64,000 nt of DNA from Minisyncoccota bacterium (GCA_041665925.1 JBAYHW010000003.1:7737-71736); one strand, 5' to 3'; shown: positions 837 through 53,438, counted from the stretch's first letter. The notes: a model not told the origin generated them from the letters alone. Program-made: numbers and translations.

Positions 837-1121
837 TTAGATTTTGTCTTTTGGCGGGCCCCACATCCATTTAGGTTTCTCCCCTTTTTTGTATCCGAAA
901 TAAAATATAAGAGCAACCATGAGCAAGACACCGAGGAGGGCTGCGCCTGGCGAGTCATCCGCGTCCCCAATACGAATACCAAGCAAAGCAATAGCAATGC
1001 CCACTAGAACCACAGCCCATCCCTGCCAGCGTACAGGCACCCAGCCCCAGCCATACATCTTCCGCTTAAACCACAAACGCTCCGGATTGTCTTTTAGATA
1101 CGCAATATATTCTTTGGTCAT
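837..1121 (-). CDS. small membrane protein, Trp-rich (KRKMYGWGWVPVRWQGW...KGEKPKWMWGP). Paralog of 23471..23794.
   Basis: ORF with a central TM helix and a conserved motif shared with a second copy in the window. Confidence 0.6.
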   Translation of the reverse strand: MTKEYIAYLKDNPERLWFKRKMYGWGWVPVRWQGWAVVLVGIAIALLGIRIGDADDSPGAALLGVLLMVALIFYFGYKKGEKPKWMWGPPKDKI

Positions 1122-23470: not shown

Positions 23471-23794
23471 CTAAAATTTATCTTTGTCTCCAGATAATCT
23501 CGACAAGAGGGGCTGGATGGGGCCCCAAGACCACTTAGTCTTTTCTCCCTTCCATAGGCATACCCCAACAAAAATTAAAGTTAAAAAAATAAATCTAGGA
23601 ATAAAACTTGCAAGAGTAGCACTAAATGAATTGTGTGAATCATTGATAAACTTTAGGTCTCCCGCAAGAGAAAGTATATAAATAATCGTTACAGCCCAAC
23701 CTTCCCAGGAAATCGGCATCCAGCCCCAACCATACATCCTTCTCTTAAACCAAAGTTTTTTTACTTTTTTATTTCCTTGTATATTTTCTTCCAT
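23471..23794 (-). CDS. small Trp-rich membrane protein, paralog of 837..1121
   Basis: Shared motif LWFKRRMYGWGWMPISWEGW...KGEKTKWSWGP. Confidence 0.6.
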   Translation of the reverse strand: MEENIQGNKKVKKLWFKRRMYGWGWMPISWEGWAVTIIYILSLAGDLKFINDSHNSFSATLASFIPRFIFLTLIFVGVCLWKGEKTKWSWGPIQPLLSRLSGDKDKF

Positions 23795-36377: not shown

Positions 36378-36761
36378 ATGGAAAAACTTAAAAAAGTTCT
36401 ATCATTAAGTGAGGCATCAAAAATTTCAGGTTATCACCCTGATTATTTGAGTGCTCTCATCCGTAAAGGAGAGCTCAGGGGCGAAAAAACGGGAGGAACT
36501 TGGTTTACCACAGAAGATGATGTCAGGGATTATATATTCAAACAAAAAGTGAGGCACAACCGTCCAGCCTTTTTTGATTTCTTGTCGCAAAAGCGAACTC
36601 AAAATATTGTAATTTATTCTGGAATTATATTCTGTCTCATTTCCCTGCTCGGTTTTTATTTCTATGGAATAAATCATAAGAATTTTACTCCTGAAGCCAA
36701 GAAAACTTTATCTCCTGACACAGAAGCAATAAAAGAAATAAAAACAGAAATTAACCAATGA
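36378..36761 (+). CDS. small HTH (excisionase/MerR-like) protein with a C-terminal TM helix
   Basis: LSLSEASKISGYHPDYLSALIRKGEL HTH, then one TM. Confidence 0.45.
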   Translation: MEKLKKVLSLSEASKISGYHPDYLSALIRKGELRGEKTGGTWFTTEDDVRDYIFKQKVRHNRPAFFDFLSQKRTQNIVIYSGIIFCLISLLGFYFYGINHKNFTPEAKKTLSPDTEAIKEIKTEINQ

Positions 36762-39655
36762 GAAAAATATTTTTACAAAAAAAATATTCACTTGTAAAAA
36801 AAATCGCTCTCACTATTTTCTCCTTAACTTATATTTTCGTTGCGATATTTTTTCACAACTCAAATGCTTACGCAGTTTTTAATAAGCAAATAAATTATCA
36901 AGGAAAACTTACAAATTCGAGCAGTGTTGCGGTTCCTGACGGATCATACAATATGGAGCTTGCACTCTACACCGTGGATTCTGGTGGCACTGCGATTTGG
37001 ACAGAGACCAGGATCGAAGCGAATCGCGTCGCAGTAGCTAACGGATTATTTAGTATATTGCTTGGCGAAGTTTCTTCACTAGCTTCCATAGATTTTAATC
37101 AGACGCTTTATCTTGGCGTAAACATTGGCGGAACTACAAACACTCCGACTCCTACCTGGGACGGCGAAATGGCTCCGAGAAAAAAACTTGGATCTGTTCC
37201 TGCAGCTTTTGAGGCAGTGAATGCGCTTACTGCCACTGCCGGGTTTACCGTGTCTGGAGGAAACCTCGTCTCCCCTATTCTCGTCGGCGGTTCTGGTACA
37301 ACTCAAGACCTGACCCTTCAAACCACGACAGGTGTGGGTGCCTCCGGTGCTGATATGCATTTTCTCGTCGGCAACAACGGTGGCACGGAAGCCATGACGA
37401 TACTAAATGATGGGAATATGGGCATAGGAATATTAAGCCCAAGCGCTGTTCTCCACCTTAAGGCCGGCACAGCATCTGCCGGTACTGGACCACTTAAATT
37501 TACCGCGGGGGCTAATTTGACCTCTCCTGAATCGGGCACATTAGAATTTGATGGCAGTAATTATTTTGGTTCAGTTGAAAGTGTTGGAACAAACTACACT
37601 TCCCAGTACCCATCTGCACATTCTAGCACTTACGTCAAATCTACATCGAGCTATAGCGCTAACTTCGAACCCTGGTTTGCTACCGATCCAGCTAAATCAC
37701 TGACGGGCGACTGGACAAATACGCAATGGGTGTCAGGTAGTGGTTCCCCTGCTTCGCAAAGATTGCATATTGATCTCGGTTCAGCTACAGTTATCAAAAG
37801 AATATATTACGAAAATTCTCATACCTCCGGCGGGTTTACCACTACAGGAGCCAAAAATTTTACCTTGTGGGGCTCTAATGATTCATCGGCTTTTTCGGAC
37901 ACAACCTATGGTTCAGATACAAACTGGACACAACTCTCTACTTCCGCTTCCCAATTTGATCAACACGCCGCATCTAATACCGCTGACCCCAAATATATAA
38001 CTGTTACGAACTCTACCGCATATAGATACTATGCAATAAAAATTGCAGACAACTGGGGCTACGCCGACTATATGGGCATTCGGCGCATTGAATTACAAAC
38101 AGCTGACTCCGTTACTGCGGACAGGCTAGGGTTGGTTATGGATAATGGCACCAGGTTGACTTCGGGTAGAATGCCTTACATAACTACCGATGGCAGACTA
38201 AAAGATACAACAAACTTTGTTTTTGATGGTACCAACCTGGGCATTGGTGATTCTTCACCGGATTATATGCTTGATGTTGCTGGCACTGCAGGATTTGATG
38301 GATTACTAACGGCCACAGCTGGACTAAACATTAGCAACGGAGCGACTTCGGCTGGGGTGCTCACTCTTTTGGAAGATACAGACGATGGTAGCAACTTTGC
38401 ATCTTTCCAAGTTCCTGCACTAGCGGCCAATACTGTGTATGTGTTGCCTGCCAATGACGGTGATGCATCCCAAGTGCTTACCACTAACGGTTCTGGGACA
38501 TTAAGCTGGGCGGCTGCATCTGCGGGCACGCCTACAGCGATTACAGTCGCCAACGAAGCGGCGGACACGACTTCATTTATAAGTTTCTTTACCGCGGCGA
38601 CGGGTGATCTCGGGCCAAAAACAAATGCAGCGCTTACCTTTGATGCTTCGACGGCGAAGCTTAGCGCAACTCAACTGGGTTCCACTGCAACGACAGGCAC
38701 TGCTCCCCTCACCGTAGCTTCTACCACGGTCGTAACAAATTTAAATGCGGATTATTTGGACGGACTGGACGGTTCCGCTTTCACTTCGCTTATTAATGAT
38801 GTTATTGGTAAGACCTCTTCCCTGCTCGGCTTTGCCCAATTTGGTGGCGATGGTTCTGACGGCGCTGGCCCAGCTTCAGGAGCGTTAACCTCCGATCCGA
38901 AACAATACACCAGCTGGACAATCACTGGAGCTGTTACTGTAAGTACTTCAGCGCCAGCGGGGTTGTTTGTGGGCGTGCAAGGCACCCTTACGTTAGATAC
39001 GGGCGGAAGTATTTCAGCAAACGGCAAAGGGCATGACCCCGGGAGTCCCCTTAACACAACCACTGGTATTGGAGAAAATTGTTTAGGTAATGTTAGTCAA
39101 ACCATGGAAGGAGGGTGTATTACAGGGGCTGGTGGAGGTGGTGGTGCCGATTCAGCTAATGCTGACGGGGCAGCTGGTGGAGGTGCGGGAGGTACGGGAG
39201 GTACGGGAGCAACACACGCTGGTGTCTCTGGTGGTGCTGCGGGGACAACAAGTGTAGCCAAAAAAACAGCAGCTAGGTTGGTGAAAGAATATTTGTTTTA
39301 CAATCCTTGGGCCAGTGGTAGGGGTTTAGTTGCGGGAGCAGGAGGAGGGACGGGCCGTACCTATGGCACTGGTGGTATGGGGGGAGGAATAATATATATT
39401 GAAGCAGACACTGTAACCATAACTCCAACTACAGCTGTTGTTACAGCGAATGGAGAGAATGCTGCCAATGATTCAAGTGGTAACGGTGGCGGCGGCGGCG
39501 GTGGCGGTGGTCTTGTGTGGATACGCGCTCGAACTCTAAGTGGGGTCAACACTACCACAGTTACTGCGAACGGCGGTACAGGAGGCACGTCAACTACAGG
39601 GTCGGCTGGAGGTAATGGCGCTGCTGGCGCGGTGATTATCGAAGATATTGATTAA
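36758..39655 (+). CDS. giant secreted protein with fibre-like repeats, a discoidin (F5/8 type C) domain and a Gly-rich C-terminus
   Basis: Signal/TM at the N-terminus. Discoidin-like block WTNTQWVSGSGSPASQRLHIDLGS...YYAIKIADNWGYADYMGIRRIELQ. C-terminal poly-Gly tract encoded by (ggc/ggt)n at 39481-39510. Confidence 0.7.
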   Translation: MRKIFLQKKYSLVKKIALTIFSLTYIFVAIFFHNSNAYAVFNKQINYQGKLTNSSSVAVPDGSYNMELALYTVDSGGTAIWTETRIEANRVAVANGLFSILLGEVSSLASIDFNQTLYLGVNIGGTTNTPTPTWDGEMAPRKKLGSVPAAFEAVNALTATAGFTVSGGNLVSPILVGGSGTTQDLTLQTTTGVGASGADMHFLVGNNGGTEAMTILNDGNMGIGILSPSAVLHLKAGTASAGTGPLKFTAGANLTSPESGTLEFDGSNYFGSVESVGTNYTSQYPSAHSSTYVKSTSSYSANFEPWFATDPAKSLTGDWTNTQWVSGSGSPASQRLHIDLGSATVIKRIYYENSHTSGGFTTTGAKNFTLWGSNDSSAFSDTTYGSDTNWTQLSTSASQFDQHAASNTADPKYITVTNSTAYRYYAIKIADNWGYADYMGIRRIELQTADSVTADRLGLVMDNGTRLTSGRMPYITTDGRLKDTTNFVFDGTNLGIGDSSPDYMLDVAGTAGFDGLLTATAGLNISNGATSAGVLTLLEDTDDGSNFASFQVPALAANTVYVLPANDGDASQVLTTNGSGTLSWAAASAGTPTAITVANEAADTTSFISFFTAATGDLGPKTNAALTFDASTAKLSATQLGSTATTGTAPLTVASTTVVTNLNADYLDGLDGSAFTSLINDVIGKTSSLLGFAQFGGDGSDGAGPASGALTSDPKQYTSWTITGAVTVSTSAPAGLFVGVQGTLTLDTGGSISANGKGHDPGSPLNTTTGIGENCLGNVSQTMEGGCITGAGGGGGADSANADGAAGGGAGGTGGTGATHAGVSGGAAGTTSVAKKTAARLVKEYLFYNPWASGRGLVAGAGGGTGRTYGTGGMGGGIIYIEADTVTITPTTAVVTANGENAANDSSGNGGGGGGGGGLVWIRARTLSGVNTTTVTANGGTGGTSTTGSAGGNGAAGAVIIEDID

Positions 39656-39674
39656 TTAAATTATTAAATAAAGA

Positions 39675-40787
39675 ATGAAAAAAAATAAACTTACAATCTT
39701 GATAATTCTCGTCTTAATATTTGCAGTGAGTTGCGGGTTTGCTAGTGCAGAAGAAATTCTGCCTGTTCCTCCAACGGAACAAACTTCGACGACTCCTGCT
39801 GACCCGGCACCAGAAGACACAAGTACTCCGCCTGCGGAAACTCCTCCCGTGACACCGGATCCCCAAACTCCACCCGCTGGAACGCCAGACCCAGGCACCG
39901 AAACCGGAACTCCCGCCGAAGACCCTGTCGTGCCACCAGCCGAAGCTCCTGCAGACCCTGCGCCAGAGATCCCCGTGGAGCCCATCCTGCCACCAGAGGC
40001 GCCAGTCGTTGTTGAAGAAACAGGCGACACCAATCCGCCGAATCGCATCAATGATTTGTCGCTCGAACGAGCGGGGCCGAAATCCGCGGATATTTCTTGG
40101 ACTGTGCCAGACATTGATGTAAAAAGTTATGATGTTCGTATATCACTGAAAGATCTCACGGAATCCAATTGGAGTAAGGCAGTCCAAATCACCGGCGGAG
40201 AAAATTCCAAAGAAGAAGGCGACGTCGAGATGGCAAGCTTGAGTGACTTGCCTCAAAACACGACGCTTTATGTCGCCGTGCGGACTTATGACAAGTCCGG
40301 CAACCCCTCCCCTATTTCCAATGTTCTTGAAATTGAAACCGAAGGCAAAGTAGAAAAAAGCAGGATTGCCGAGCTACGAGCAGGCGGAGCGGATGATGAA
40401 AACTTAAGTCCAGAAAATAGCGGGGTTGTCCGGCTGGTCTTGCAAGAAGAGGGTACTAAGTCCCCTATCTCCGACGAGTTAATCTTTGTGAATTTCATAA
40501 ATAAAAGAACGGGTGTAAGCACCGGAGGCGCTGTCACCGACGGCATGCTCGCTATGGAAATTCCGGCAGGAGAATATACAGTCAAGCTCATACTGCCGCC
40601 GACACTAAACGTCGCGGACGAATTGCCGACATTCGATATGGAAGAAGGTGGAGATGTGGATCTCGGTATTGTCAGGTTGACGCCCTCAGGTATGGCTGAA
40701 AACACAGATGGCTCTCTTTCTTTTGTAATCAAACTTTTGTTTGAAATAATTAAACTCTTACAAGAAATATTAACTAAACTTGGATAA
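39675..40787 (+). CDS. secreted Pro/Thr/Glu-rich protein with an FN3-like domain
   Basis: Signal peptide, PETPP-rich linker, and ISWTVPDIDVKSYDVRI...LYVAVRTYDKSGNPSP FN3 block. Confidence 0.6.
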   Translation: MKKNKLTILIILVLIFAVSCGFASAEEILPVPPTEQTSTTPADPAPEDTSTPPAETPPVTPDPQTPPAGTPDPGTETGTPAEDPVVPPAEAPADPAPEIPVEPILPPEAPVVVEETGDTNPPNRINDLSLERAGPKSADISWTVPDIDVKSYDVRISLKDLTESNWSKAVQITGGENSKEEGDVEMASLSDLPQNTTLYVAVRTYDKSGNPSPISNVLEIETEGKVEKSRIAELRAGGADDENLSPENSGVVRLVLQEEGTKSPISDELIFVNFINKRTGVSTGGAVTDGMLAMEIPAGEYTVKLILPPTLNVADELPTFDMEEGGDVDLGIVRLTPSGMAENTDGSLSFVIKLLFEIIKLLQEILTKLG

Positions 40788-45511: not shown

Positions 45512-45814
45512 ATGAAAAAACCTTTATTATTTGCATCGGGAGCAGCGCTATATATTATTGTTATCGTTAACGTCACACAAGCTTTATCATTTCTCTTAAA
45601 GAACCAAAATGAAACGATTATCATCCCTATGACTATGCTGAGTCTGTTTGTGTTGTCAGCTGCTGTGATGGGATTTTTATTTTTATCTGAACCTCTTTCG
45701 CTACTTATGGAAAACAAGAAACAAGAAGCCATCATCTTCTTTGCTAAGATTGTCGGATTTTTCGCTTGCTTCGTCGTTATCTTTGCCGTCTTACTTTTTC
45801 TTAATAAAATATGA
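45512..45814 (+). CDS. small 3-TM membrane protein
   Basis: Hydrophobic ORF. Confidence 0.45.
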   Translation: MKKPLLFASGAALYIIVIVNVTQALSFLLKNQNETIIIPMTMLSLFVLSAAVMGFLFLSEPLSLLMENKKQEAIIFFAKIVGFFACFVVIFAVLLFLNKI

Positions 45815-46251
45815 ACGAAGAAAACGAAATCCAGATTAAATGTCGGGCTGTTATCCTACATGAAGGAAAATTGTTAACAGTTAAGCATCCGCATGACAAG
45901 AGCTTCGCAGCACTTCCGGGTGGACATTTAGAATATGGAGAAGATGTAAAAGAATGCTTGATAAGAGAAATAATAGAAGAGCTTGGGGTTAAGCCAGACG
46001 TAGGTAGACTGTTTTATATCAATACTTATCTACAGAGCGACAACAAACAATACATTGAATTTTTCTTTGAGGTAAAGAACGGCATGGATTATTTAAACAT
46101 TGAAAAACTTCCCCGCTCACACGCACACGAAATTGCTGAAATAGTATGGGTAAGCCCAGATGATGATATCCGAATCCTGCCAAAAAGTTTAGGTGATGAC
46201 TTCAAGGCTGGAAAAATAATCTCCAACGAGGTTAGATATATAAAAGGTTAA
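45811..46251 (+). CDS. NUDIX hydrolase
   Basis: GGHLEYGEDVKECLIREIIEELGV Nudix box. Confidence 0.8.
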   Translation: MNEENEIQIKCRAVILHEGKLLTVKHPHDKSFAALPGGHLEYGEDVKECLIREIIEELGVKPDVGRLFYINTYLQSDNKQYIEFFFEVKNGMDYLNIEKLPRSHAHEIAEIVWVSPDDDIRILPKSLGDDFKAGKIISNEVRYIKG

Positions 46252-48617: not shown

Positions 48618-48633
48618 CTTAAATTAGCCGTCA

Positions 48634-48666
48634 AACAAAAAACCCGCAAAAGCGGGTTTTTTGTTT
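48634..48666. terminator. bidirectional intrinsic terminator aaaaaacccgcaaaagcgggtttttt
   Basis: Hairpin with flanking A- and T-runs between convergent genes. Confidence 0.75.
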
Positions 48667-48676
48667 GACTACTTTT

Positions 48677-49186
48677 TTATTTTTTATACAAACCTTTAAG
48701 TAATTCTGTCCCTCTATGTATCTGCACAGCAATGGTATTTTTCAACTGACCAGTAATCTCTGACATCTCATCTAGGGTTAATTCATCTAAATATCGCATT
48801 CGCATAACTTTCTGATATTTGGGCGGAAGACAATCAATCAAAAGAATGGCTTCTCTTCCGTCAAGTTTAGATATTGTCCTCTTAGAGTCATCAATACTCG
48901 GCTCAAAACCCTTGGTTAGAAGAGTGTCTAAACTAACTGTCTTGTGTTTCCTGTACTCATCCACTATTAAATTGTTAAGTATATGATACAAGAATGCTTT
49001 CATGGTTTCTATTTTCCCTCCCTTTACTAAATAATTCCAAGTTTTTAAGAAAGTATTCTGCACTAGGTCTTCGGCGAGAGTACCATCACTTACTTTATAA
49101 TATGCTCGCCTTTTGAGATCATTTGCATAACTCCCATGGGCTTCTGTTAATAACATCTTAAGTTGTATTTCTTGTTGTATTGTCAT
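48677..49186 (-). CDS. sigma-70 family (ECF-type) RNA polymerase sigma factor
   Basis: Region 2 EDLVQNTFLKTW and a region 4 HTH LDEMSEITGQLKNTIAVQIHRG. Confidence 0.7.
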   Translation of the reverse strand: MTIQQEIQLKMLLTEAHGSYANDLKRRAYYKVSDGTLAEDLVQNTFLKTWNYLVKGGKIETMKAFLYHILNNLIVDEYRKHKTVSLDTLLTKGFEPSIDDSKRTISKLDGREAILLIDCLPPKYQKVMRMRYLDELTLDEMSEITGQLKNTIAVQIHRGTELLKGLYKK

Positions 49187-49339
49187 TTTATTGTATGGTT
49201 ACTAATAATTTTAATTAGATATTTAATCTAATTTTAATATTATAGGAAGATGCCCACAATAAGTCAACAAGAAATAACCCTTATTTGGGGATAAAATGTG
49301 TATAACTTTAATATAATTTTAATATTGGTATTTACTGAG

Positions 49340-50578
49340 TTAAATAACCTTTATTGGCAAGGTTACACTGAAAATACTACCCTTAGATTTTGTGCTTTTA
49401 AGTTCAACACTTCCCTTGTGTGTCTCCGCTACCCATTTGACAATAGCAAGTCCTAACCCAGTTCTATTACCGTCAGAATTATGAGATTTATCACCCCGAT
49501 AAAATCTTTCAAAGACATGCTTAATGTCCTCTTTTGATACTCCGACACCATTATCTTCCACGCTTATTTTGACAAAACCTTTTGAGACTTTAGCCGACAC
49601 AGTGGTACGCCCGTTTTGATGACCATAAGTAATAGAATTTTTAATAAGATTCATAAACATTTTTTCAAGATAATCTTCATTTCCAGGAATTTTTATTGAA
49701 GGAATGTTCTTAATAAAAATAGAAATGTTTTTAGGACTAGCAAGAGTAGCACATCTGTTTACTACGCTCTTAATGAGGGATTTGAGATCAATCTTATGGT
49801 AAATAATAGCATCTGTCTGCCCACGTCCTCCTTGCGAAGTTAGAAGAGCCAGGTCTGATACTATGTCTGAAAGCCGATTTACTTCTTCATCAACAGACAC
49901 CAGTATTTCTTTATTAAATTTAGTATCAGAGTTTTTAATCCTTCTCACCAAGTCAATGTTCCCTTTTATTATCGCAAGCGGAGTTCGTATTTCGTGAGTC
50001 GCGTTGGCTATAAAATCATTTTTTAATTTTTCTTGAGAAAGTAGAACCTCTACTGTTTTTTGTTTTTCTGCTAAAACAAGGGCTTTTTGTTCATTTTCAT
50101 TCATCCAATTTATTGTAATAGCTTGAGCTATCGTATTCCCTGCTGTATTAGAAAAAACTATTTCTCCTGCCGAAAAATCATGTTTTTGTTTATAACATAA
50201 AATTATTTCTCCATAAACACGATCTCCGTAATGTATGGGAATAATAATGTAACTTTTTAATAATCTCCAAAAAATTGACTCGTAATTTTCTTTTTTTACA
50301 TTACTATCAAACCATAATTTCCCACCTACTGTCTTCTTCTTTGTTTTTTTTCTATCAGGAAGAGTAGGAACACCAGGGGTATTTAAACTCTTGTATACAA
50401 GCCTGTATTGATCAGCATCATTGAATTTTCCCCAAGCAAAACCAAAATCTGCCTCAAAAATATCAATGCATTGATCAGTAAATTTTTTAACAATAGAAAT
50501 ATTACTCTCTTCGGCCATTGCGTAAAGAGTGGTTTTATTAAAATCCTCTAATTTTTTTGAAGCTACTGTTTTAGTCAT
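49340..50578 (-). CDS. sensor histidine kinase (cytoplasmic, GAF/PAS-like N-terminus)
   Basis: H-box ATHEIRTPL plus an HATPase_c with N, G1 and G2 boxes (EDNGVGV, GLGLAIVK). Confidence 0.85.
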   Translation of the reverse strand: MTKTVASKKLEDFNKTTLYAMAEESNISIVKKFTDQCIDIFEADFGFAWGKFNDADQYRLVYKSLNTPGVPTLPDRKKTKKKTVGGKLWFDSNVKKENYESIFWRLLKSYIIIPIHYGDRVYGEIILCYKQKHDFSAGEIVFSNTAGNTIAQAITINWMNENEQKALVLAEKQKTVEVLLSQEKLKNDFIANATHEIRTPLAIIKGNIDLVRRIKNSDTKFNKEILVSVDEEVNRLSDIVSDLALLTSQGGRGQTDAIIYHKIDLKSLIKSVVNRCATLASPKNISIFIKNIPSIKIPGNEDYLEKMFMNLIKNSITYGHQNGRTTVSAKVSKGFVKISVEDNGVGVSKEDIKHVFERFYRGDKSHNSDGNRTGLGLAIVKWVAETHKGSVELKSTKSKGSIFSVTLPIKVI

Positions 50579-51177
50579 TTTATATACTTTAGCACAAGGG
50601 GAATTTCTTCACGAAAAACAAATGGCATAAATACCTCAATGTTATCATGTTTAAGTAATAACTCTTTAGATATTTTTTGAAAACCTCCTCCAGGAATTCC
50701 TGATTCTTTTATTATTTTTTGAAAATTAACAGGTGATTTGTAAATATATACTGAACGTATAAAATTATTAATCTTTAGTCCTAAATTTTTTTCTTTATCC
50801 TCTAACCCTCTAAGCTTACCCAGGAGAATTAAGTCTGATGTTGCTATAGAAATACCGGTTTCTTCTTCCATTTCTCGAACTGCAGCTTCTAAATAATCCT
50901 CTCCCTGGTTAACGTGCCCACCAGCAGTAGCGTCAAGTAACCCAGCAGACCTGGCGTGTAACCCTCTTTTCTGGAAAATAATATTGAAATCCTTATCAAA
51001 CATCCACACGTGAACTTCGCGGTGAAGCAAGCCCAGTCGATGAACTTCGGTTCGCGTTTGAGCACCGACAACCTCATCATCTTCGGTTACTACCTCGAGT
51101 AGTCTTTTGTTTTCGTAATCTAAATTTGTCATACCTTGTTTCAGTTTTCGCTCTTTTGAGCTCATCAGCGGGGACAC
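50575..51177 (-). CDS. NUDIX hydrolase with a C-terminal extension
   Basis: GGHVNQGEDYLEAAVREMEEETGI Nudix box. Confidence 0.75.
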   Translation of the reverse strand: MSPLMSSKERKLKQGMTNLDYENKRLLEVVTEDDEVVGAQTRTEVHRLGLLHREVHVWMFDKDFNIIFQKRGLHARSAGLLDATAGGHVNQGEDYLEAAVREMEEETGISIATSDLILLGKLRGLEDKEKNLGLKINNFIRSVYIYKSPVNFQKIIKESGIPGGGFQKISKELLLKHDNIEVFMPFVFREEIPLVLKYIK

Positions 51178-51198
51178 ACATCCCTGTAACTGCGATCC

Positions 51199-51918
51199 TC
51201 AACGAACCGCAGTCTGGTTCGTTGGGATCATTGCCGGACGAAGCCCGGCGATTACTTCGAGTTGACGGACACATTCCTCAATTGTGCCGTCGTTGTAGAT
51301 GACGTGATCGTAGAGGACACCGAAGTCGTCACCGAAGTGGTCGACGTTCTTGGCCCACTTGGAGCCAAAATCGATGTTCTCTTTGCGGCACCTCTTGTAG
51401 AGCCGTTTGCGCATCTTTTCGGTGTCAGTCATAGTGATAAAGACTGTCACCATGCTGAGACTGTTGGGAAGTCTACGCACTGCCGTGCGGAAGACGTCCC
51501 AATGCTTCTTAATCTCAGGAGAAGCGTATCCGGACGTGAACAAAACAACATCCACGTAAGGAGACGCTTCCAGCGCTGGCCAGAGCCTCGGGTTCGGAAT
51601 ACCGGTCAGGTAGGGTTTCTTGCGCACTGAAACCCTGTGACTGGTCGAGAACCAGATGTCGTTACCAGGGTCAAACGCGTCAGGAGGGCGTTGTCCTTCC
51701 TCATAAACTACATCGAGTTCTCTTTTCCCGCTCGTAAGACGCCACTCGTATTCCTCCAAGCTCACAAACTCATACTCGGTATTGCGCCGTTCGCGCTTAC
51801 GAGGAGGCCGAGTGGTTACTCTGGGTATCCACAAAACCCGGTTACGCTCCGAGAGAAGCTGGAGCACGGTGCTCTTACCCACTCCCGAAAACCCGTTTAC
51901 TGACAAAATTATACTCAT
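51199..51918 (-). CDS. guanylate-kinase-like P-loop kinase, GC-rich gene
   Basis: GFSGVGKSTV P-loop and TTRPPRKRERRNTEYEFVSLEEY (a GK-like motif). The start was trimmed to the Met that has an AAAGGAGGGG RBS. Local GC is about 50%. Confidence 0.55.
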   Translation of the reverse strand: MSIILSVNGFSGVGKSTVLQLLSERNRVLWIPRVTTRPPRKRERRNTEYEFVSLEEYEWRLTSGKRELDVVYEEGQRPPDAFDPGNDIWFSTSHRVSVRKKPYLTGIPNPRLWPALEASPYVDVVLFTSGYASPEIKKHWDVFRTAVRRLPNSLSMVTVFITMTDTEKMRKRLYKRCRKENIDFGSKWAKNVDHFGDDFGVLYDHVIYNDGTIEECVRQLEVIAGLRPAMIPTNQTAVR

Positions 51919-52041
51919 ATCCCCTCCTTTAGGGATTTTGTTAAATCCCATAGTGAAGGGACAGTTGTTAATGTTCACTTCTTTCACTCTCTTAATACCA
52001 CAAAAACACCTTTTTTGCAAGGTTAAAATGTAATTAAATAT

Positions 52042-52710
52042 TTATTCTTTCAAAACAAATCCGACTCCGCGAACTGTATGTATTAGAGATTTATTTTTAG
52101 CGCCATCAACTTTTGTACGCAAATATCGTATATGCACGTTAAGCTCGTTGTTTGTTTCTTTAAATGCAGGACCCCAGGCATGATCTATGAGTTTACGCCT
52201 ACTGATAGCCTCTCCTTGATTAGAAATAAGTGTGTCTAGAAGTTTATATTCTTTGGGAGTAAGTGGAAGTATTTTCCCCGCACGGGTCACTTCGTGTTTC
52301 TTTTTATCCATTATCAAATCCCCTACTTTAACTATATTGGCATCAGTTATCTTTGGTCGACGCAAAACTGCTCGTACTCGTGCGAAAAGTTCCGTTAATC
52401 CGAATGGCTTTACTAAATAATCATCCGCACCCACATCAAGTCCGTTGACCTTATCTTCTGTGCTGCCTCGTGCAGTAAGCATAATTATAGGAGTATGGAT
52501 GTGGTGTTCACGAAGCTCTTTACATACAGCAAAACCATCTTTTTTGGGCAACATTATATCAAGCAAAATCAAGGCATAATTATTCTTAAGTGCTTTCTTT
52601 AAACCCTCTTCTCCGTCATAAGCCACATCCGTAGAAAAACGTTCGCTTTTAAGCGCCTTTTTTAATATGTCTACCAACTTCTTTTCATCTTCCACAATTA
52701 AAATTGACAT
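52042..52710 (-). CDS. OmpR-family response regulator
   Basis: Receiver domain (ILLDIMLPKKDGF) plus a winged-helix output domain. Confidence 0.9.
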   Translation of the reverse strand: MSILIVEDEKKLVDILKKALKSERFSTDVAYDGEEGLKKALKNNYALILLDIMLPKKDGFAVCKELREHHIHTPIIMLTARGSTEDKVNGLDVGADDYLVKPFGLTELFARVRAVLRRPKITDANIVKVGDLIMDKKKHEVTRAGKILPLTPKEYKLLDTLISNQGEAISRRKLIDHAWGPAFKETNNELNVHIRYLRTKVDGAKNKSLIHTVRGVGFVLKE

Positions 52711-52850: not shown

Positions 52851-53438
52851 ATGAAAAAAACAAAAATGAAGACTGAAAAAGGCATAAGGCTGAACGGGCA
52901 GCTTTATATTAATAAACTTGGGGAAGAGGGTTGGACATACATTAAAACCGTAGTAGATATTGTACGAGAACCAATTTTAATTCTAGATCAGGATCTACGC
53001 GTAGTAGCTGCCAATGAACCTTTTTATACAACATTTAAGGTAGAGACAAAAGATACAGAAAATAAAATTTTGTATGAATTAGGTAATGGACAATGGAACA
53101 TCCCTGAATTACGAAAGTTATTAGAAGATATTTTACCAAAAAATACTTATTTTAAGGGATTTGAGGTTACGCAAGATTTCCCAGGAATTGGACGCAAGAT
53201 AATGATCTTAAATGGCAGGCAAATTTATTTAAAAGAGGTTTCTGCGGCACAACTATACCCACCCATCATTCTCCTTGCGATAGAAGATATTACAGACATG
53301 ATGGATGTAGCAGATATGCTTGCCCGGCACACAAACGAATTTGAGGAAAAAATGGCAGAAAAAACAGGGCAACTAGAAATTCGCATTAAAGAACTAGAAA
53401 AGGAGATAGCGATGCTAATTAGTAGAATAAAAATTTAA
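52851..53438 (+). CDS. PAS-like sensor domain protein with a C-terminal coiled coil
   Basis: PILILDQDLRVVAANEPFYTTF PAS-like core. Tentative. Confidence 0.45.
   Translation: MKKTKMKTEKGIRLNGQLYINKLGEEGWTYIKTVVDIVREPILILDQDLRVVAANEPFYTTFKVETKDTENKILYELGNGQWNIPELRKLLEDILPKNTYFKGFEVTQDFPGIGRKIMILNGRQIYLKEVSAAQLYPPIILLAIEDITDMMDVADMLARHTNEFEEKMAEKTGQLEIRIKELEKEIAMLISRIKI

What the first reader, a model, noticed from the sequence alone, without database searches (positions are those of the whole stretch)
49340..52710. Two-component operon interrupted by a GC-rich guanylate-kinase-like gene and a NUDIX gene
The response regulator (52042..52710) and the histidine kinase (49340..50578) are separated by a P-loop kinase with a guanylate-kinase TTRPPR...EYEFVS motif and a NUDIX hydrolase. 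The kinase gene is about 50% GC against a genomic 35%. The kinase and NUDIX genes look like a horizontally inserted nucleotide-modifying pair wired into a signalling operon. They could form a regulated alarmone-like or nucleotide-signal-degrading module.
Basis: partly seen in the sequence, partly recalled or inferred. Interest (0 to 1): 0.5.

Follow-up and report, generated by a model that had tools for sequence, protein, structure and literature searches.

The report
Native kinase–NUDIX signalling operon with hammerhead
The GC-rich kinase-like gene and the NUDIX gene between the response regulator and the sensor kinase are an old, conserved part of this locus in Paceibacteria (CPR bacteria), not a recent foreign insertion, and the spacer between them holds a conserved self-cleaving hammerhead ribozyme that probably cuts the messenger RNA in two.

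Summary
On the minus strand lie an OmpR-type response regulator (52042-52710), a divergent guanylate-kinase-fold P-loop kinase (51199-51918; GC 52.8%, GC3 0.62, window GC 38.6%), a YfcD-like NUDIX hydrolase (50575-51132) and a cytoplasmic GAF histidine kinase (49340-50578).

The "horizontal insertion" reading does not hold. The order RR–kinase–NUDIX–HK, or the trio kinase–NUDIX–HK, recurs in about 10 Paceibacteria lineages. The kinase co-diverges with its neighbours. Its high synonymous GC is conserved in all 12 lineages examined, so it is a property of the gene family, and it remains unexplained.

The kinase is not canonical gmk: it scores below the NCBIfam cut-off and the guanine-binding Asp motif is replaced.

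New: the 66-nt kinase–NUDIX spacer contains a 53-nt type III hammerhead ribozyme (51141-51193). The catalytic core is intact, nine lineages carry it, and 8 of 15 base pairs covary. One lineage has a canonical promoter before NUDIX instead, preceded by a terminator-like hairpin that a second lineage shares.

The kinase also has its own promoter-like element and a leader hairpin that buries its Shine-Dalgarno sequence.

Most likely this is a native signalling unit whose mRNA is split by the ribozyme between two enzymes that may act in opposition on a phosphorylated metabolite. The substrate is unknown.

The parts
52042..52710 (-). OmpR-family response regulator (222 aa)
   Evidence: Pfam Response_reg plus Trans_reg_C. 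It is below every NCBIfam equivalog cut-off. Identity to orthologues at syntenic loci is 67-85%.
51992..52020 (-). Promoter-like element in front of the kinase gene: TTGCAA, 17 nt, then (TGTGG)TATTAA
   Evidence: Read by eye. The pattern TTGNNN-17-(TGTGG)TAnnAn recurs upstream of the kinase gene in window, L003, L006, L018, L021, L022 and L078. A TTGACT form occurs in L023 and L024. It is also present where no RR lies upstream. The consensus scan did not call it in the window.
51919..51962 (-). Leader hairpin that pairs the kinase Shine-Dalgarno (GGAGGGG) and ends at the start codon
   Evidence: MFE -20.9 kcal/mol, z -4.26, 0 of 200 shuffles fold as well. A consensus fold is kept in 5 loci.
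51199..51918 (-). Divergent guanylate-kinase-fold P-loop kinase (239 aa); GC-rich and RNA-structure-rich ORF
   Evidence: AF2 model pLDDT 86.5. Foldseek top hits are guanylate kinases. Family profile against PDB guanylate kinases gives E 2e-25. The mRNA MFE is below synonymous-codon shuffles (z -3.07).
51188..51214 (-). Hairpin enclosing the kinase stop codon. Its 3' strand overlaps the 5' strand of hammerhead stem III and would form the 3' end of the upstream cleavage product.
   Evidence: -16.3 kcal/mol, z -3.69. A hairpin sits at or overlapping this position in every hammerhead-bearing locus (by eye).
51141..51193 (-). Type III hammerhead self-cleaving ribozyme. Predicted cleavage is 3' of A51187 (triplet UUA).
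   Evidence: Rfam RF00008 scores 26.8 bits, E 0.007 in a 2.5-kb scan, below the gathering score of 48.5. The core CUGAUGA...GAA-A is intact. The orthologous element is found in 9 lineages. Model R1 scores 52-80 bits, with one hit per locus, always at this spacer. 97% of cells are paired, 8 of 15 pairs have compensatory changes, and 0 of 500 shuffles reach this.
50575..51132 (-). YfcD-like NUDIX hydrolase (185 aa). The start codon lies 8 nt after the ribozyme.
   Evidence: PF00293. Intact Nudix box. The best solved relative is E. coli YfcD, 2FKB. About 80 orthologues occur in Paceibacteria.
49340..50578 (-). Cytoplasmic GAF-HisKA-HATPase histidine kinase (412 aa). Its start overlaps the NUDIX stop by 4 nt (ATGA).
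   Evidence: No transmembrane segment: maximum KD(19) is 0.87, against 2.77 in the FtsX control. The identical protein is named 'GAF domain-containing sensor histidine kinase [Candidatus Paceibacterota bacterium]' by NCBI. Pfam GAF/GAF_2 hits are on record for many orthologues.
48677..49186 (-). ECF-type sigma factor, a neighbour conserved at several loci, with its own promoter at 49239-49267
   Evidence: Sigma70_r2 plus r4_2. TTGACT-17-TATAAT matches 11 of 12. It lies beside the module in L006, L021 and L018/L025.
52851..53438 (+). Small PAS-like protein, divergent from the RR; a possible accessory
   Evidence: Weak PAS_8/PAS_9 hits. A 59%-identical orthologue lies downstream of the HK in L018/L025.

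Best explanation
This is a native, lineage-specific signalling locus of Paceibacteria (CPR/Patescibacteria). It is not an operon interrupted by foreign genes.

Layout: behind the response-regulator gene lies a unit with its own promoter-like element. The unit consists of:
- a leader hairpin that buries the ribosome-binding site;
- a fast-evolving guanylate-kinase-fold kinase, whose coding RNA is GC-rich and unusually structured in every lineage;
- a 53-nt type III hammerhead ribozyme;
- a YfcD-like NUDIX hydrolase;
- a cytoplasmic GAF histidine kinase, translationally coupled to the NUDIX gene.

Shown:
- the conservation and co-divergence of the genes;
- the kinase fold, and replacement of the guanine-binding Asp motif of true guanylate kinases;
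- the hammerhead sequence and structure, with covariation;
- replacement of the hammerhead by a canonical promoter in front of NUDIX in L029, preceded by a terminator-like hairpin that L023 also carries.

Inferred:
- The ribozyme cuts the transcript just after the kinase stop codon.
- The kinase mRNA is left ending in a stable hairpin with a 2',3'-cyclic phosphate.
- The NUDIX-HK mRNA is left with a 5'-OH, and its start codon is released from stem III.
- The two halves can then be translated and degraded independently.

More speculative:
- The kinase (X-P + ATP -> X-PP) and the NUDIX hydrolase (X-PP -> X-P + Pi) act in opposition on one phosphorylated nucleotide-like metabolite.
- The HK's GAF domain reads the level of that metabolite and passes it to the RR, and perhaps to the neighbouring ECF sigma factor.

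My sub-confidences: native conserved module 0.9; genuine hammerhead 0.9; hammerhead active in vivo 0.7; writer/eraser/GAF-reader circuit 0.3.
For: Synteny:
- RR-kinase-NUDIX-HK occurs in window, L006/L016, L021 and L018/L025-28.
- Kinase-NUDIX-HK, with the RR opposite or absent, occurs in L014, L029/L030 and L078. Its first two or three genes are also seen on the short contigs L017, L022 and L024.

Co-divergence: Mantel r is 0.83 (p 0.011) against HK and 0.44 (p 0.006) against NUDIX. Mean p-distances are kinase 0.65, NUDIX 0.44 and HK 0.49.

GC3 excess: present in all lineages.

Kinase:
- The family has about 29 clusters at E<=1e-10 among 1.84 billion representatives.
- Nearly invariant residues are the P-loop G/K, R37, R40, E48, Y49, W113, R172 and R176.
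- The fold is guanylate kinase.

Hammerhead.

Functional replacement: L029 has TTGACT-17-TATAAT before NUDIX, and the spacer hairpins are strong.

Other structural features:
- NUDIX and HK overlap by 4-13 nt in 6 lineages.
- The leader hairpin is supported.
- The GAF domain and the absence of a transmembrane segment are supported.

Precedent for hammerheads processing polycistronic RNA: Perreault et al. 2011, PMC3088659.
Against: - There is no biochemical or transcript evidence.
- The hammerhead scores below Rfam's gathering threshold in every locus (26.8-41.5 against 48.5).
- On thermodynamics alone the upstream hairpin out-competes the 5-bp stem III.
- L014 carries G12->A, and L018 has only 3 contiguous stem III pairs.
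- The cleavage triplet here is UUA, not the favoured GUC.
- The substrate of both enzymes is unknown.
- A NUDIX orthologue occurs without kinase or TCS in L031, so the enzymes need not be dedicated to signalling.
- I could not check whether the genome has a canonical gmk elsewhere (none in the window).
- The conserved GC and RNA-structure excess of the kinase ORF is not explained by this model.
Confidence: 0.6

Rival explanations
1. One reading: the kinase and NUDIX genes are a recently acquired GC-rich foreign cassette inserted into an RR-HK operon.
For: The kinase has GC 52.8% and GC3 0.62 in a 38.6% GC window. In L003 the kinase sits after the HK rather than before it, so the cassette has moved at least once. 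The same hammerhead subfamily is common in viral contigs.
Against: The same order is found in lineages whose RR is only 67-85% identical. The kinase co-diverges with its neighbours. The GC3 excess is conserved in 12 lineages at 26-67% protein identity, and a recent transfer cannot produce that. The NUDIX gene has host-like GC in relatives. No kinase relatives were found in IMG/VR, and no operon proteins occur in the hammerhead-bearing viral loci.
Confidence: 0.04
2. The kinase is simply this lineage's divergent housekeeping guanylate kinase, and the NUDIX a housekeeping pool-sanitising enzyme. They happen to sit beside a two-component system.
For: The fold is guanylate kinase. The P-loop, the TTRPxR motif, Tyr49 and the LID arginines are kept. 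There is no other gmk in the 64-kb window. CPR genomes are reduced (my own knowledge).
Against: TIGR03263 scores 50.7 against 160 bits. Only the N-terminal ~55 residues match the Pfam model. The Asp-containing 'DxDxQG' guanine-binding stretch is replaced by 'LSxFG'. An invariant Trp113 and an insertion of variable length replace the GMP-binding lobe. It is the fastest-evolving gene of the unit, which is unlike an essential enzyme. It has a buried ribosome-binding site. Its linkage to NUDIX-HK is strict across lineages.
Confidence: 0.1
3. The kinase and NUDIX are output enzymes, for example for nucleotide salvage or phosphate scavenging under a PhoR/PhoB-like system. They are co-transcribed with the sensor for autoregulation and do not make or remove the sensed signal. 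The hammerhead only sets relative expression.
For: The best NCBIfam matches for the HK and RR include PhoR and PhoB. A NUDIX orthologue stands alone beside HAD and PfkB genes in L031. PfkB and phosphatase-like genes lie near the module in L025 and L029.
Against: All PhoR and PhoB scores are far below their cut-offs. No pst or phoU genes were seen next to the module. The NUDIX-HK start/stop overlap and the trio persisting where the RR is elsewhere point to a tighter functional tie than ordinary regulon membership.
Confidence: 0.25
4. The hammerhead-like sequence is an inactive relic or a chance match, and the spacer is just a structured intergenic region.
For: It scores below the Rfam gathering score. 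The MFE fold of the isolated element is not the hammerhead fold. L014 has the catalytic G12 replaced.
Against: All 11 core nucleotides are kept in 8 of 9 lineages, while the stems change by compensatory substitutions. There is one hit per locus, always at the same spacer, and none elsewhere in 321 kb. The same 53-nt architecture occurs in 45 viral contigs with up to 4 copies each.
Confidence: 0.07

Closest known systems
Guanylate kinase (Gmk; Pfam PF00625, NCBIfam TIGR03263)
   Same: The fold is the same: Foldseek probability 1.0 and TM about 0.6-0.7 to solved guanylate kinases. The family profile aligns end to end with guanylate kinases, E 2e-25. The P-loop, TTRPxR, Tyr49 and the LID arginines are conserved.
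   Different: Identity is 15-20%. It scores below the equivalog cut-off. The guanine-contacting Asp motif is replaced, and Arg33 sits where guanylate kinases have the guanine-contacting Ser. There is an invariant Trp113 and a variable insertion in the NMP-binding lobe. It is restricted to roughly 30 clusters, and every locus with a named organism or source-named neighbouring protein is Paceibacteria. It is always linked to NUDIX-HK.
E. coli YfcD (PDB 2FKB) and the IDI-like clade of NUDIX proteins
   Same: YfcD is the best sequence match among solved structures. They share the N-terminal extension and the 'LHR..H' segment, and the Nudix box is intact.
   Different: It scores 57 bits against the 152-bit YfcD cut-off. 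It lacks the Cys of IPP isomerase (GGH instead of CGH, read from the alignment). YfcD itself has no established substrate (my knowledge), so the match does not give a function.
Type III hammerhead ribozymes of prophage and phage polycistronic transcripts (Perreault et al. 2011, PMC3088659)
   Same: The core and three-stem architecture are the same. Stem I has 6 bp and stem II 4 bp, and that 2-bp difference is what the paper links to loop-loop contacts. It sits between genes on the coding strand. The same 53-nt subfamily was found in 45 IMG/VR contigs.
   Different: Here it is a single copy at a fixed position inside a conserved chromosomal signalling unit of CPR bacteria. It is inherited with the flanking genes and is substituted by a promoter in front of NUDIX in a sister lineage, preceded by a terminator-like hairpin. 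It is not associated with phage genes.
glmS ribozyme (mRNA self-cleavage controlling expression of the adjacent enzyme gene; my own knowledge)
   Same: It works alike in principle: a self-cleaving RNA in an mRNA determines the fate of the downstream cistron through a 5'-OH end.
   Different: It is a different ribozyme class. No ligand dependence is indicated here, and the element lies between two cistrons rather than in a 5' UTR.
Kinase/Nudix antagonistic pairs such as plant isopentenyl-phosphate kinase with Nudix IPP hydrolases, and alarmone synthetase/hydrolase pairs (my own knowledge)
   Same: The proposed logic is the same: a kinase adds and a Nudix enzyme removes a terminal phosphate on the same metabolite, setting its level.
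   Different: No homology of the kinase to IPK or RelA/SpoT. No RelA_SpoT domain occurs in the window; only L014 has one next to its RR. The substrate is unknown.

Membership tests
Canonical guanylate kinase (Gmk) | Walker A P-loop and NMP-kinase/guanylate-kinase fold | tested here: met
   GFSGVGKST is present. AF2 model pLDDT is 86.5, and the top Foldseek hits are all guanylate kinases. Profile against PDB guanylate kinases gives E 2e-25.
Canonical guanylate kinase (Gmk) | Score above the curated equivalog cut-off (TIGR03263, 160.45 bits) | tested here: not met
   50.7 bits, matching residues 40-97 only.
Canonical guanylate kinase (Gmk) | Guanine-contacting residues of the GMP lobe (Ser34, Glu69, Asp100 in yeast numbering, which I recalled from memory) | tested here: not met
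   In alignments with canonical guanylate kinases, the 'D.D.QG' stretch aligns to 'LS.FG'/'FTSGYA', and the Ser position is Arg33. The residue mapping is by alignment, not by structure superposition.
Canonical guanylate kinase (Gmk) | GMP + ATP -> GDP + ADP activity | not testable with these tools
   Needs an enzyme assay.
NUDIX hydrolase superfamily | Nudix box GX5EX7REUXEEXGU and Pfam PF00293 above cut-off | tested here: met
   GHVNQGEDYLEAAVREMEEETGI at residue 72. PF00293 scores 44.8 bits against 21.1.
YfcD equivalog (NF011922) | Score above the 152-bit cut-off | tested here: not met
   57 bits.
Hammerhead ribozyme, type III (RF00008) | Conserved core C3 U4 G5 A6 N7 G8 A9, G12 A13 A14, the A15.1-U16.1 pair, and H17 | tested here: met
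   The window has CUGAUGA...GAA-A with the U16.1-A15.1 pair and H17 = A. The same holds in 8 of 9 lineages; L014 has G12->A.
Hammerhead ribozyme, type III (RF00008) | Three helices around the core, with stems I and II closed and stem III open, supported by covariation | tested here: met
   97% of cells paired, 8 of 15 pairs with compensatory changes, 0 of 500 shuffles, and slid controls 30-47% paired. The manual alignment gives the same result.
Hammerhead ribozyme, type III (RF00008) | Rfam gathering score (48.5 bits) | tested here: not met
   26.8 bits in the window and 27.6-41.5 bits in five orthologous loci. The Rfam model is built mainly on other subfamilies (my inference).
Hammerhead ribozyme, type III (RF00008) | Site-specific self-cleavage giving 2',3'-cP and 5'-OH ends | not testable with these tools
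   Needs in vitro transcription or 5'-OH/cP RNA-seq.
Two-component system (OmpR-type RR plus HisKA-family HK) | HisKA with the H-box His, HATPase_c, a receiver domain and a winged-helix output domain | tested here: met
   The H-box is 'ATHEIRTPL'.
PhoR/PhoB phosphate regulon system | Scores above the equivalog cut-offs | tested here: not met
   PhoR scores 192.8 against 334 bits and PhoB 203.6 against 296 bits.
(p)ppGpp alarmone synthetase/hydrolase module | RelA_SpoT synthetase or HD hydrolase domain in the unit | tested here: not met
   None among the four window proteins. A RelA_SpoT protein lies next to the RR only in L014.
Known anti-phage defence systems (PADLOC) | Significant match of any of the four proteins to a defence-system model | tested here: not met
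   Only generic domain-level hits, E >= 6e-8.

The most novel reading that the evidence does not exclude
The unit is a self-contained second-messenger circuit specific to CPR bacteria. A guanylate-kinase-derived 'writer' and a NUDIX 'eraser' set the level of a so far unknown phosphorylated nucleotide-like signal. The GAF domain of the co-translated histidine kinase reads that signal. The hammerhead ribozyme is a regulated switch: its stem III competes with a hairpin that contains the kinase stop codon, so cleavage could be coupled to translation of the kinase. The switch would set the writer-to-eraser ratio. The conserved GC-rich, highly structured kinase ORF and the buried ribosome-binding site would be part of this RNA-level control.
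Probability: 0.15. Interest if true: 0.85.

Novelty: new variant of a known kind. Interest (0 to 1): 0.62.

Why it matters

Here a hammerhead sits at one fixed position in a vertically inherited chromosomal operon. It lies between two enzymes that may act in opposition. In a sister lineage a canonical promoter before NUDIX, preceded by a terminator-like hairpin, stands in its place. Together these give a concrete, testable hypothesis: the ribozyme uncouples two cistrons.

The locus also defines an uncharacterised guanylate-kinase-derived enzyme family. That family is tied to a NUDIX hydrolase and a cytoplasmic GAF sensor in Paceibacteria, organisms whose signalling is almost unknown.

Finally, the finding is a caution. 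A strong GC and codon anomaly is not always horizontal transfer. Here it is a conserved, presumably selected, property of one gene.

Tried and rejected
- **Recent HGT.** Rejected by synteny, co-divergence and conservation of the GC3 excess.
- **Amino-acid composition as the cause of high GC.** Rejected. GC3 is 0.62, and both pyrimidine- and purine-ending third positions are shifted.
- **A conserved antisense gene in the GC-rich ORF.** Long antisense ORFs exist, but they lie in the codon-aligned frame, where GC-rich codon use removes stops. They break at different places in orthologues. Rejected.
- **Structured RNA gene instead of a protein gene.** Rejected. The protein motifs are conserved, the AF2 model is confident, and no Rfam family matches the ORF.
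- **Phage origin of the kinase.** No relatives were found in IMG/VR, and no operon proteins occur in hammerhead-bearing viral loci.
- **Known defence system.** Nothing in PADLOC.
- **Another ribozyme class in L029 and L023 at the same position.** No Rfam match. The hairpin plus U-run looks terminator-like but was not called by the scan.
- **Second GC-rich zone of the window (about 36.8-40.8 kb).** It contains no rRNA. It encodes two large secreted-looking proteins with only mildly raised GC3 (0.38-0.44), so it is a different phenomenon.
- **A first metagenome scan with the broad 31-sequence alignment.** It failed for lack of a conserved stretch. A 9-sequence alignment worked.
- **Literature searches.** No description of this module, or of hammerheads in CPR bacteria, was found.

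Full report
**What is in the window**

- An OmpR-type response regulator lies at 52042-52710.
- A P-loop kinase follows. Its real start is the ATG at 51918, behind an AGGAGG site, giving 239 aa at 51199-51918.
- A NUDIX hydrolase lies at 50575-51132 with an intact Nudix box.
- A HisKA/HATPase_c histidine kinase lies at 49340-50578. Its ATG overlaps the NUDIX stop (ATGA).

The HK has no hydrophobic segment. NCBI names the identical protein a GAF domain-containing sensor histidine kinase of a Candidatus Paceibacterota MAG, and many orthologues carry Pfam GAF hits. The organism is therefore a CPR/Patescibacteria bacterium. The same contig was found in ENA and Logan assemblies.

**The GC anomaly is real and synonymous**

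- The window averages 38.6% GC and the kinase gene 52.8%.
- Kinase GC3 is 0.62, against 0.24-0.37 in the neighbouring genes.
- Among 67 ORFs of the window, GC3 has mean 0.335 and sd 0.063. The kinase is the clear outlier.
- Both C-over-T and G-over-A at third positions are raised.

**The kinase is guanylate-kinase-like but not gmk**

- Pfam Guanylate_kin matches residues 42-92 only. TIGR03263 gives 50.7 bits against a cut-off of 160.
- In 5.8 billion proteins the word-indexed search found only two close relatives. Otherwise it found N-terminal matches to true guanylate kinases.
- A profile search of 1.84 billion representatives found about 29 clusters at E<=1e-10.
- Their alignment keeps the P-loop, R37, R40, E48, Y49 and the LID arginines R172 and R176. 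It also shows an invariant W113, Arg33, and 'LSxFG' where guanylate kinases have the Asp-rich guanine-binding 'DxDxQG'.
- An AlphaFold model built on this alignment is confident (pLDDT 86.5). Its best PDB matches are all guanylate kinases at 15-20% identity.

I conclude it is an ATP-dependent phosphotransferase of the guanylate-kinase fold. It keeps the phosphate-binding half of the acceptor site and has lost the guanine-binding half. The substrate is unknown.

The NUDIX protein is closest to E. coli YfcD (2FKB) and the IDI-like clade. It lacks the isomerase Cys and is below the YfcD cut-off.

**Not a recent insertion**

Related loci were gathered by exact-protein look-ups and pattern scans.
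- The order RR-kinase-NUDIX-HK occurs in L006/L016 (a Candidatus Paceibacterota MAG), in L021, and in L018/L025-28, whose NUDIX (P0218) and HK (P0337) are proteins that NCBI assigns to a Candidatus Nomurabacteria RIFCSPHIGHO2_01_FULL_42 genome. An ECF sigma factor is often alongside.
- The trio kinase-NUDIX-HK occurs with the RR on the other strand in L014 and L029/L030, and with no RR nearby in L078.
- The short contigs L017, L022 and L024 show the first two or three genes of the trio.
- L003 has RR-HK(PAS type)-kinase, and the contig ends 49 nt later.
- One NUDIX orthologue (L031) stands alone.

Identity to the window falls in the same rank order for all genes. The kinase distance matrix correlates with those of HK (Mantel r 0.83, p 0.011) and NUDIX (r 0.44, p 0.006). 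The kinase is the fastest-evolving gene, with mean p-distance 0.65 against 0.44 and 0.49.

The kinase gene is GC-richer than its neighbours in every one of 12 lineages: GC3 0.45-0.63, an excess of 0.10-0.35. A compositional signature that persists through divergence to 26-67% protein identity cannot be a fresh transfer. It must be maintained. The NUDIX gene has host-like composition in relatives.

**The unexpected element: a hammerhead ribozyme**

A permissive Rfam scan of the region gave one hit. It was Hammerhead_3 (type III) at 51140-51194 on the coding strand, 26.8 bits, E 0.007 for 2.5 kb. That is exactly the 66-nt kinase-NUDIX spacer. On its own this is weak and below the gathering score. 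The whole-window scan at gathering threshold reported only two tRNAs.

The orthologous spacers decide the matter. Window, L006, L021, L018, L022, L017, L024 and L014, and later L078, all carry the following, in order:
- 5' stem III strand, then H17;
- a 6-bp stem I with loop UGUGUG-like;
- CUGAYGA;
- stem II GCUC-AAAA-GAGC;
- GAA;
- 3' stem III strand.

On a manual alignment of seven sequences, 8 of 16 pairs show compensatory changes. A covariance model built from it finds exactly one hit per locus, always at this spacer, at 52-80 bits. It finds nothing else in the window or in 23 loci.

On nine lineages, 97% of cells pair, 8 of 15 pairs covary, 0 of 500 shuffles reach this, and slid controls give 30-47% pairing. 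Rfam's own model independently hits five orthologues at 27.6-41.5 bits.

The core is complete in 8 of 9 lineages. L014 has G12->A and a 31-nt insertion in stem II. L018 has only three contiguous stem III pairs.

The same compact 53-nt type III architecture is frequent in IMG/VR. The pattern found 45 contigs, the model gave 70 hits, and some contigs carry up to four copies. This matches the known use of hammerheads to process phage polycistronic RNAs (Perreault et al. 2011, PMC3088659).

**Context of the ribozyme**

- *Upstream hairpin.* The predicted cleavage site is 3' of A51187, 12 nt after the kinase stop codon. An 11-bp hairpin (51188-51214; -16.3 kcal/mol, z -3.7) encloses that stop codon. 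Its 3' strand is also the 5' strand of stem III. A hairpin at or overlapping this position is present in all hammerhead loci (by eye). It would cap the 3' end of the upstream product. It could alternatively act as a competitor that gates ribozyme folding. Thermodynamic folding of the 93-nt context prefers it to stem III, so this is a genuine uncertainty.
- *NUDIX start codon.* It lies 0-14 nt after stem III in the nine lineages, often without room for a Shine-Dalgarno sequence. Release of stem III by cleavage should therefore expose the initiation region.
- *Lineages without the hammerhead.* In L029 the spacer contains two strong hairpins, the second followed by a U-run. It also contains a TTGACT-17-TATAAT promoter directly before NUDIX. 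L023 shares that second hairpin with its U-run, but its contig ends soon after, so no promoter or NUDIX can be seen there. In L029 a transcriptional device thus stands where the others have an RNA-cleaving one. This is my main argument that the ribozyme's job is to uncouple the kinase cistron from NUDIX-HK.

**Control of the kinase gene**

- *Own promoter-like element.* Upstream of the kinase gene, including at loci where no RR precedes it, lies TTGNNN-17-(TGTGG)TAnnAn (by eye; window 51992-52020). The simple scan did not call it.
- *Buried ribosome-binding site.* The leader folds into a hairpin that pairs the Shine-Dalgarno sequence up to the start codon (-20.9 kcal/mol, z -4.3). It is kept in five loci.
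- *Structured coding RNA.* The kinase coding RNA folds more stably than synonymous-codon-shuffled versions in 6 of 6 orthologues (z -1.0 to -3.1). The window RR and NUDIX genes give +3.1 and +1.0 (40 shuffles each, so these are rough).

Together these suggest strong RNA-level restraint on kinase expression. That may be the reason for the conserved GC excess, but this is not shown.

**How I think it works**

- *Shown:* a native, conserved Paceibacteria unit of leader, kinase, hammerhead, NUDIX and GAF-HK, next to or near its RR.
- *Inferred, with good support:* the transcript self-cleaves between kinase and NUDIX, which separates the fates of the two mRNAs.
- *Inferred, with weak support:* the kinase and the NUDIX act in opposition on one phosphorylated metabolite, X-P and X-PP. 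A guanylate-kinase-fold enzyme phosphorylates a phosphate acceptor, and NUDIX enzymes hydrolyse diphosphate linkages. The soluble GAF domain of the co-translated HK senses that metabolite.

Supporting hints for the last step are the NUDIX-HK start/stop overlap in six lineages and the persistence of the trio without an adjacent RR. A RelA_SpoT protein also lies beside the RR in L014 only.

Rival readings are given separately: housekeeping gmk, ordinary regulon output under a PhoR/PhoB-like system, and inactive hammerhead. The PhoR and PhoB scores are well below their cut-offs, and PADLOC gives nothing.

**Novelty**

Each component class is known: two-component system, guanylate-kinase fold, NUDIX, hammerhead. 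I found no description of this module, or of hammerheads in CPR bacteria, in the searchable literature. That library is incomplete.

The combination appears new. It comprises a single hammerhead fixed inside a vertically inherited chromosomal signalling operon, exchangeable in one lineage with a promoter in front of NUDIX (preceded by a terminator-like hairpin), and next to a gene with a conserved synonymous GC and structure excess. Few self-cleaving ribozymes have a known function (PMC8782182), so this would be a useful test case.

I rate it a new variant of known kinds, with interest 0.62.

Noticed in passing
window 51199-51918, and orthologues in L003, L006, L014, L017, L018, L021, L022, L023, L024, L029 and L078: The kinase ORF keeps GC3 at 0.45-0.63 in every lineage, although the neighbouring genes are at 0.24-0.47. 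Its mRNA is more structured than synonymous-codon shuffles in 6 of 6 orthologues. I have no explanation. The candidates are selection on RNA structure, on rare codons, or on mRNA stability.
   Followed up: partly
L033-L077 (IMG/VR contigs): The same compact 53-nt type III hammerhead occurs in 45 viral contigs, with up to four copies per contig. It has stem I of 6 bp with loop UG(U/A)GUG and stem II GCUC-AAAA-GAGC. The genes it flanks were not examined.
   Followed up: partly
L014 7045-7128: The Nomurabacteria orthologue of the hammerhead has a 31-nt insertion in stem II and A instead of the catalytic G12. It may be an inactive or altered variant.
   Followed up: no
L029 4835-4935 and L023 1400-1515: In the two lineages without the hammerhead, the spacer carries a conserved hairpin GCCGTCGAAGGA..CCAACGACGGC followed by a U-run, with a conserved loop sequence. 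No Rfam family matches it. It could be a terminator or another structured element.
   Followed up: partly
L014 10432-11130: A RelA_SpoT-domain protein (small alarmone synthetase-like, E 2e-15) lies next to the response regulator of the module in this one lineage. A PRPP-synthetase-like ORF follows it.
   Followed up: partly
L003 2503-4494: Relative to the window's synteny (prfB ... ftsE-ftsX-pyrG-RR), this relative has a diversity-generating retroelement (bAvd plus reverse transcriptase) and a MazEF pair inserted.
   Followed up: no
L003 8573-9688 and contig end at 10574 (also L004): In this close relative (RR 84% identical) the HK is a PAS-type kinase of 371 aa, and the GC-rich kinase gene, with the same leader, follows it. 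Two independent contigs both end 49 nt after the kinase stop, which suggests a repeat or strain-variable junction.
   Followed up: partly
window 36758-40787: A second GC-rich stretch (48-53% GC) is not rRNA. It encodes two large proteins with signal-peptide-like N-termini (965 and 370 aa). GC3 is only 0.38-0.44, so amino-acid composition largely explains it.
   Followed up: partly
window 837-1121 and 23471-23794: Two small paralogous ORFs share a 'LWFKR.MYGWGW.P' motif. The first has GC3 0.52 and the second 0.34.
   Followed up: no
window 45811-46251: A second, MutT-like NUDIX gene (146 aa) lies 3 kb away. It is unrelated to the YfcD-like one.
   Followed up: no
window 48630-48669: A perfect 18-bp palindromic hairpin with U-runs on both sides sits between the convergent sigma-factor gene and the 187-aa secreted-protein gene. 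It is a likely bidirectional terminator.
   Followed up: no
L031 4411-6582: A 52%-identical orthologue of the NUDIX protein occurs without kinase or two-component genes. It is flanked by a HAD hydrolase and a PfkB-family kinase.
   Followed up: no
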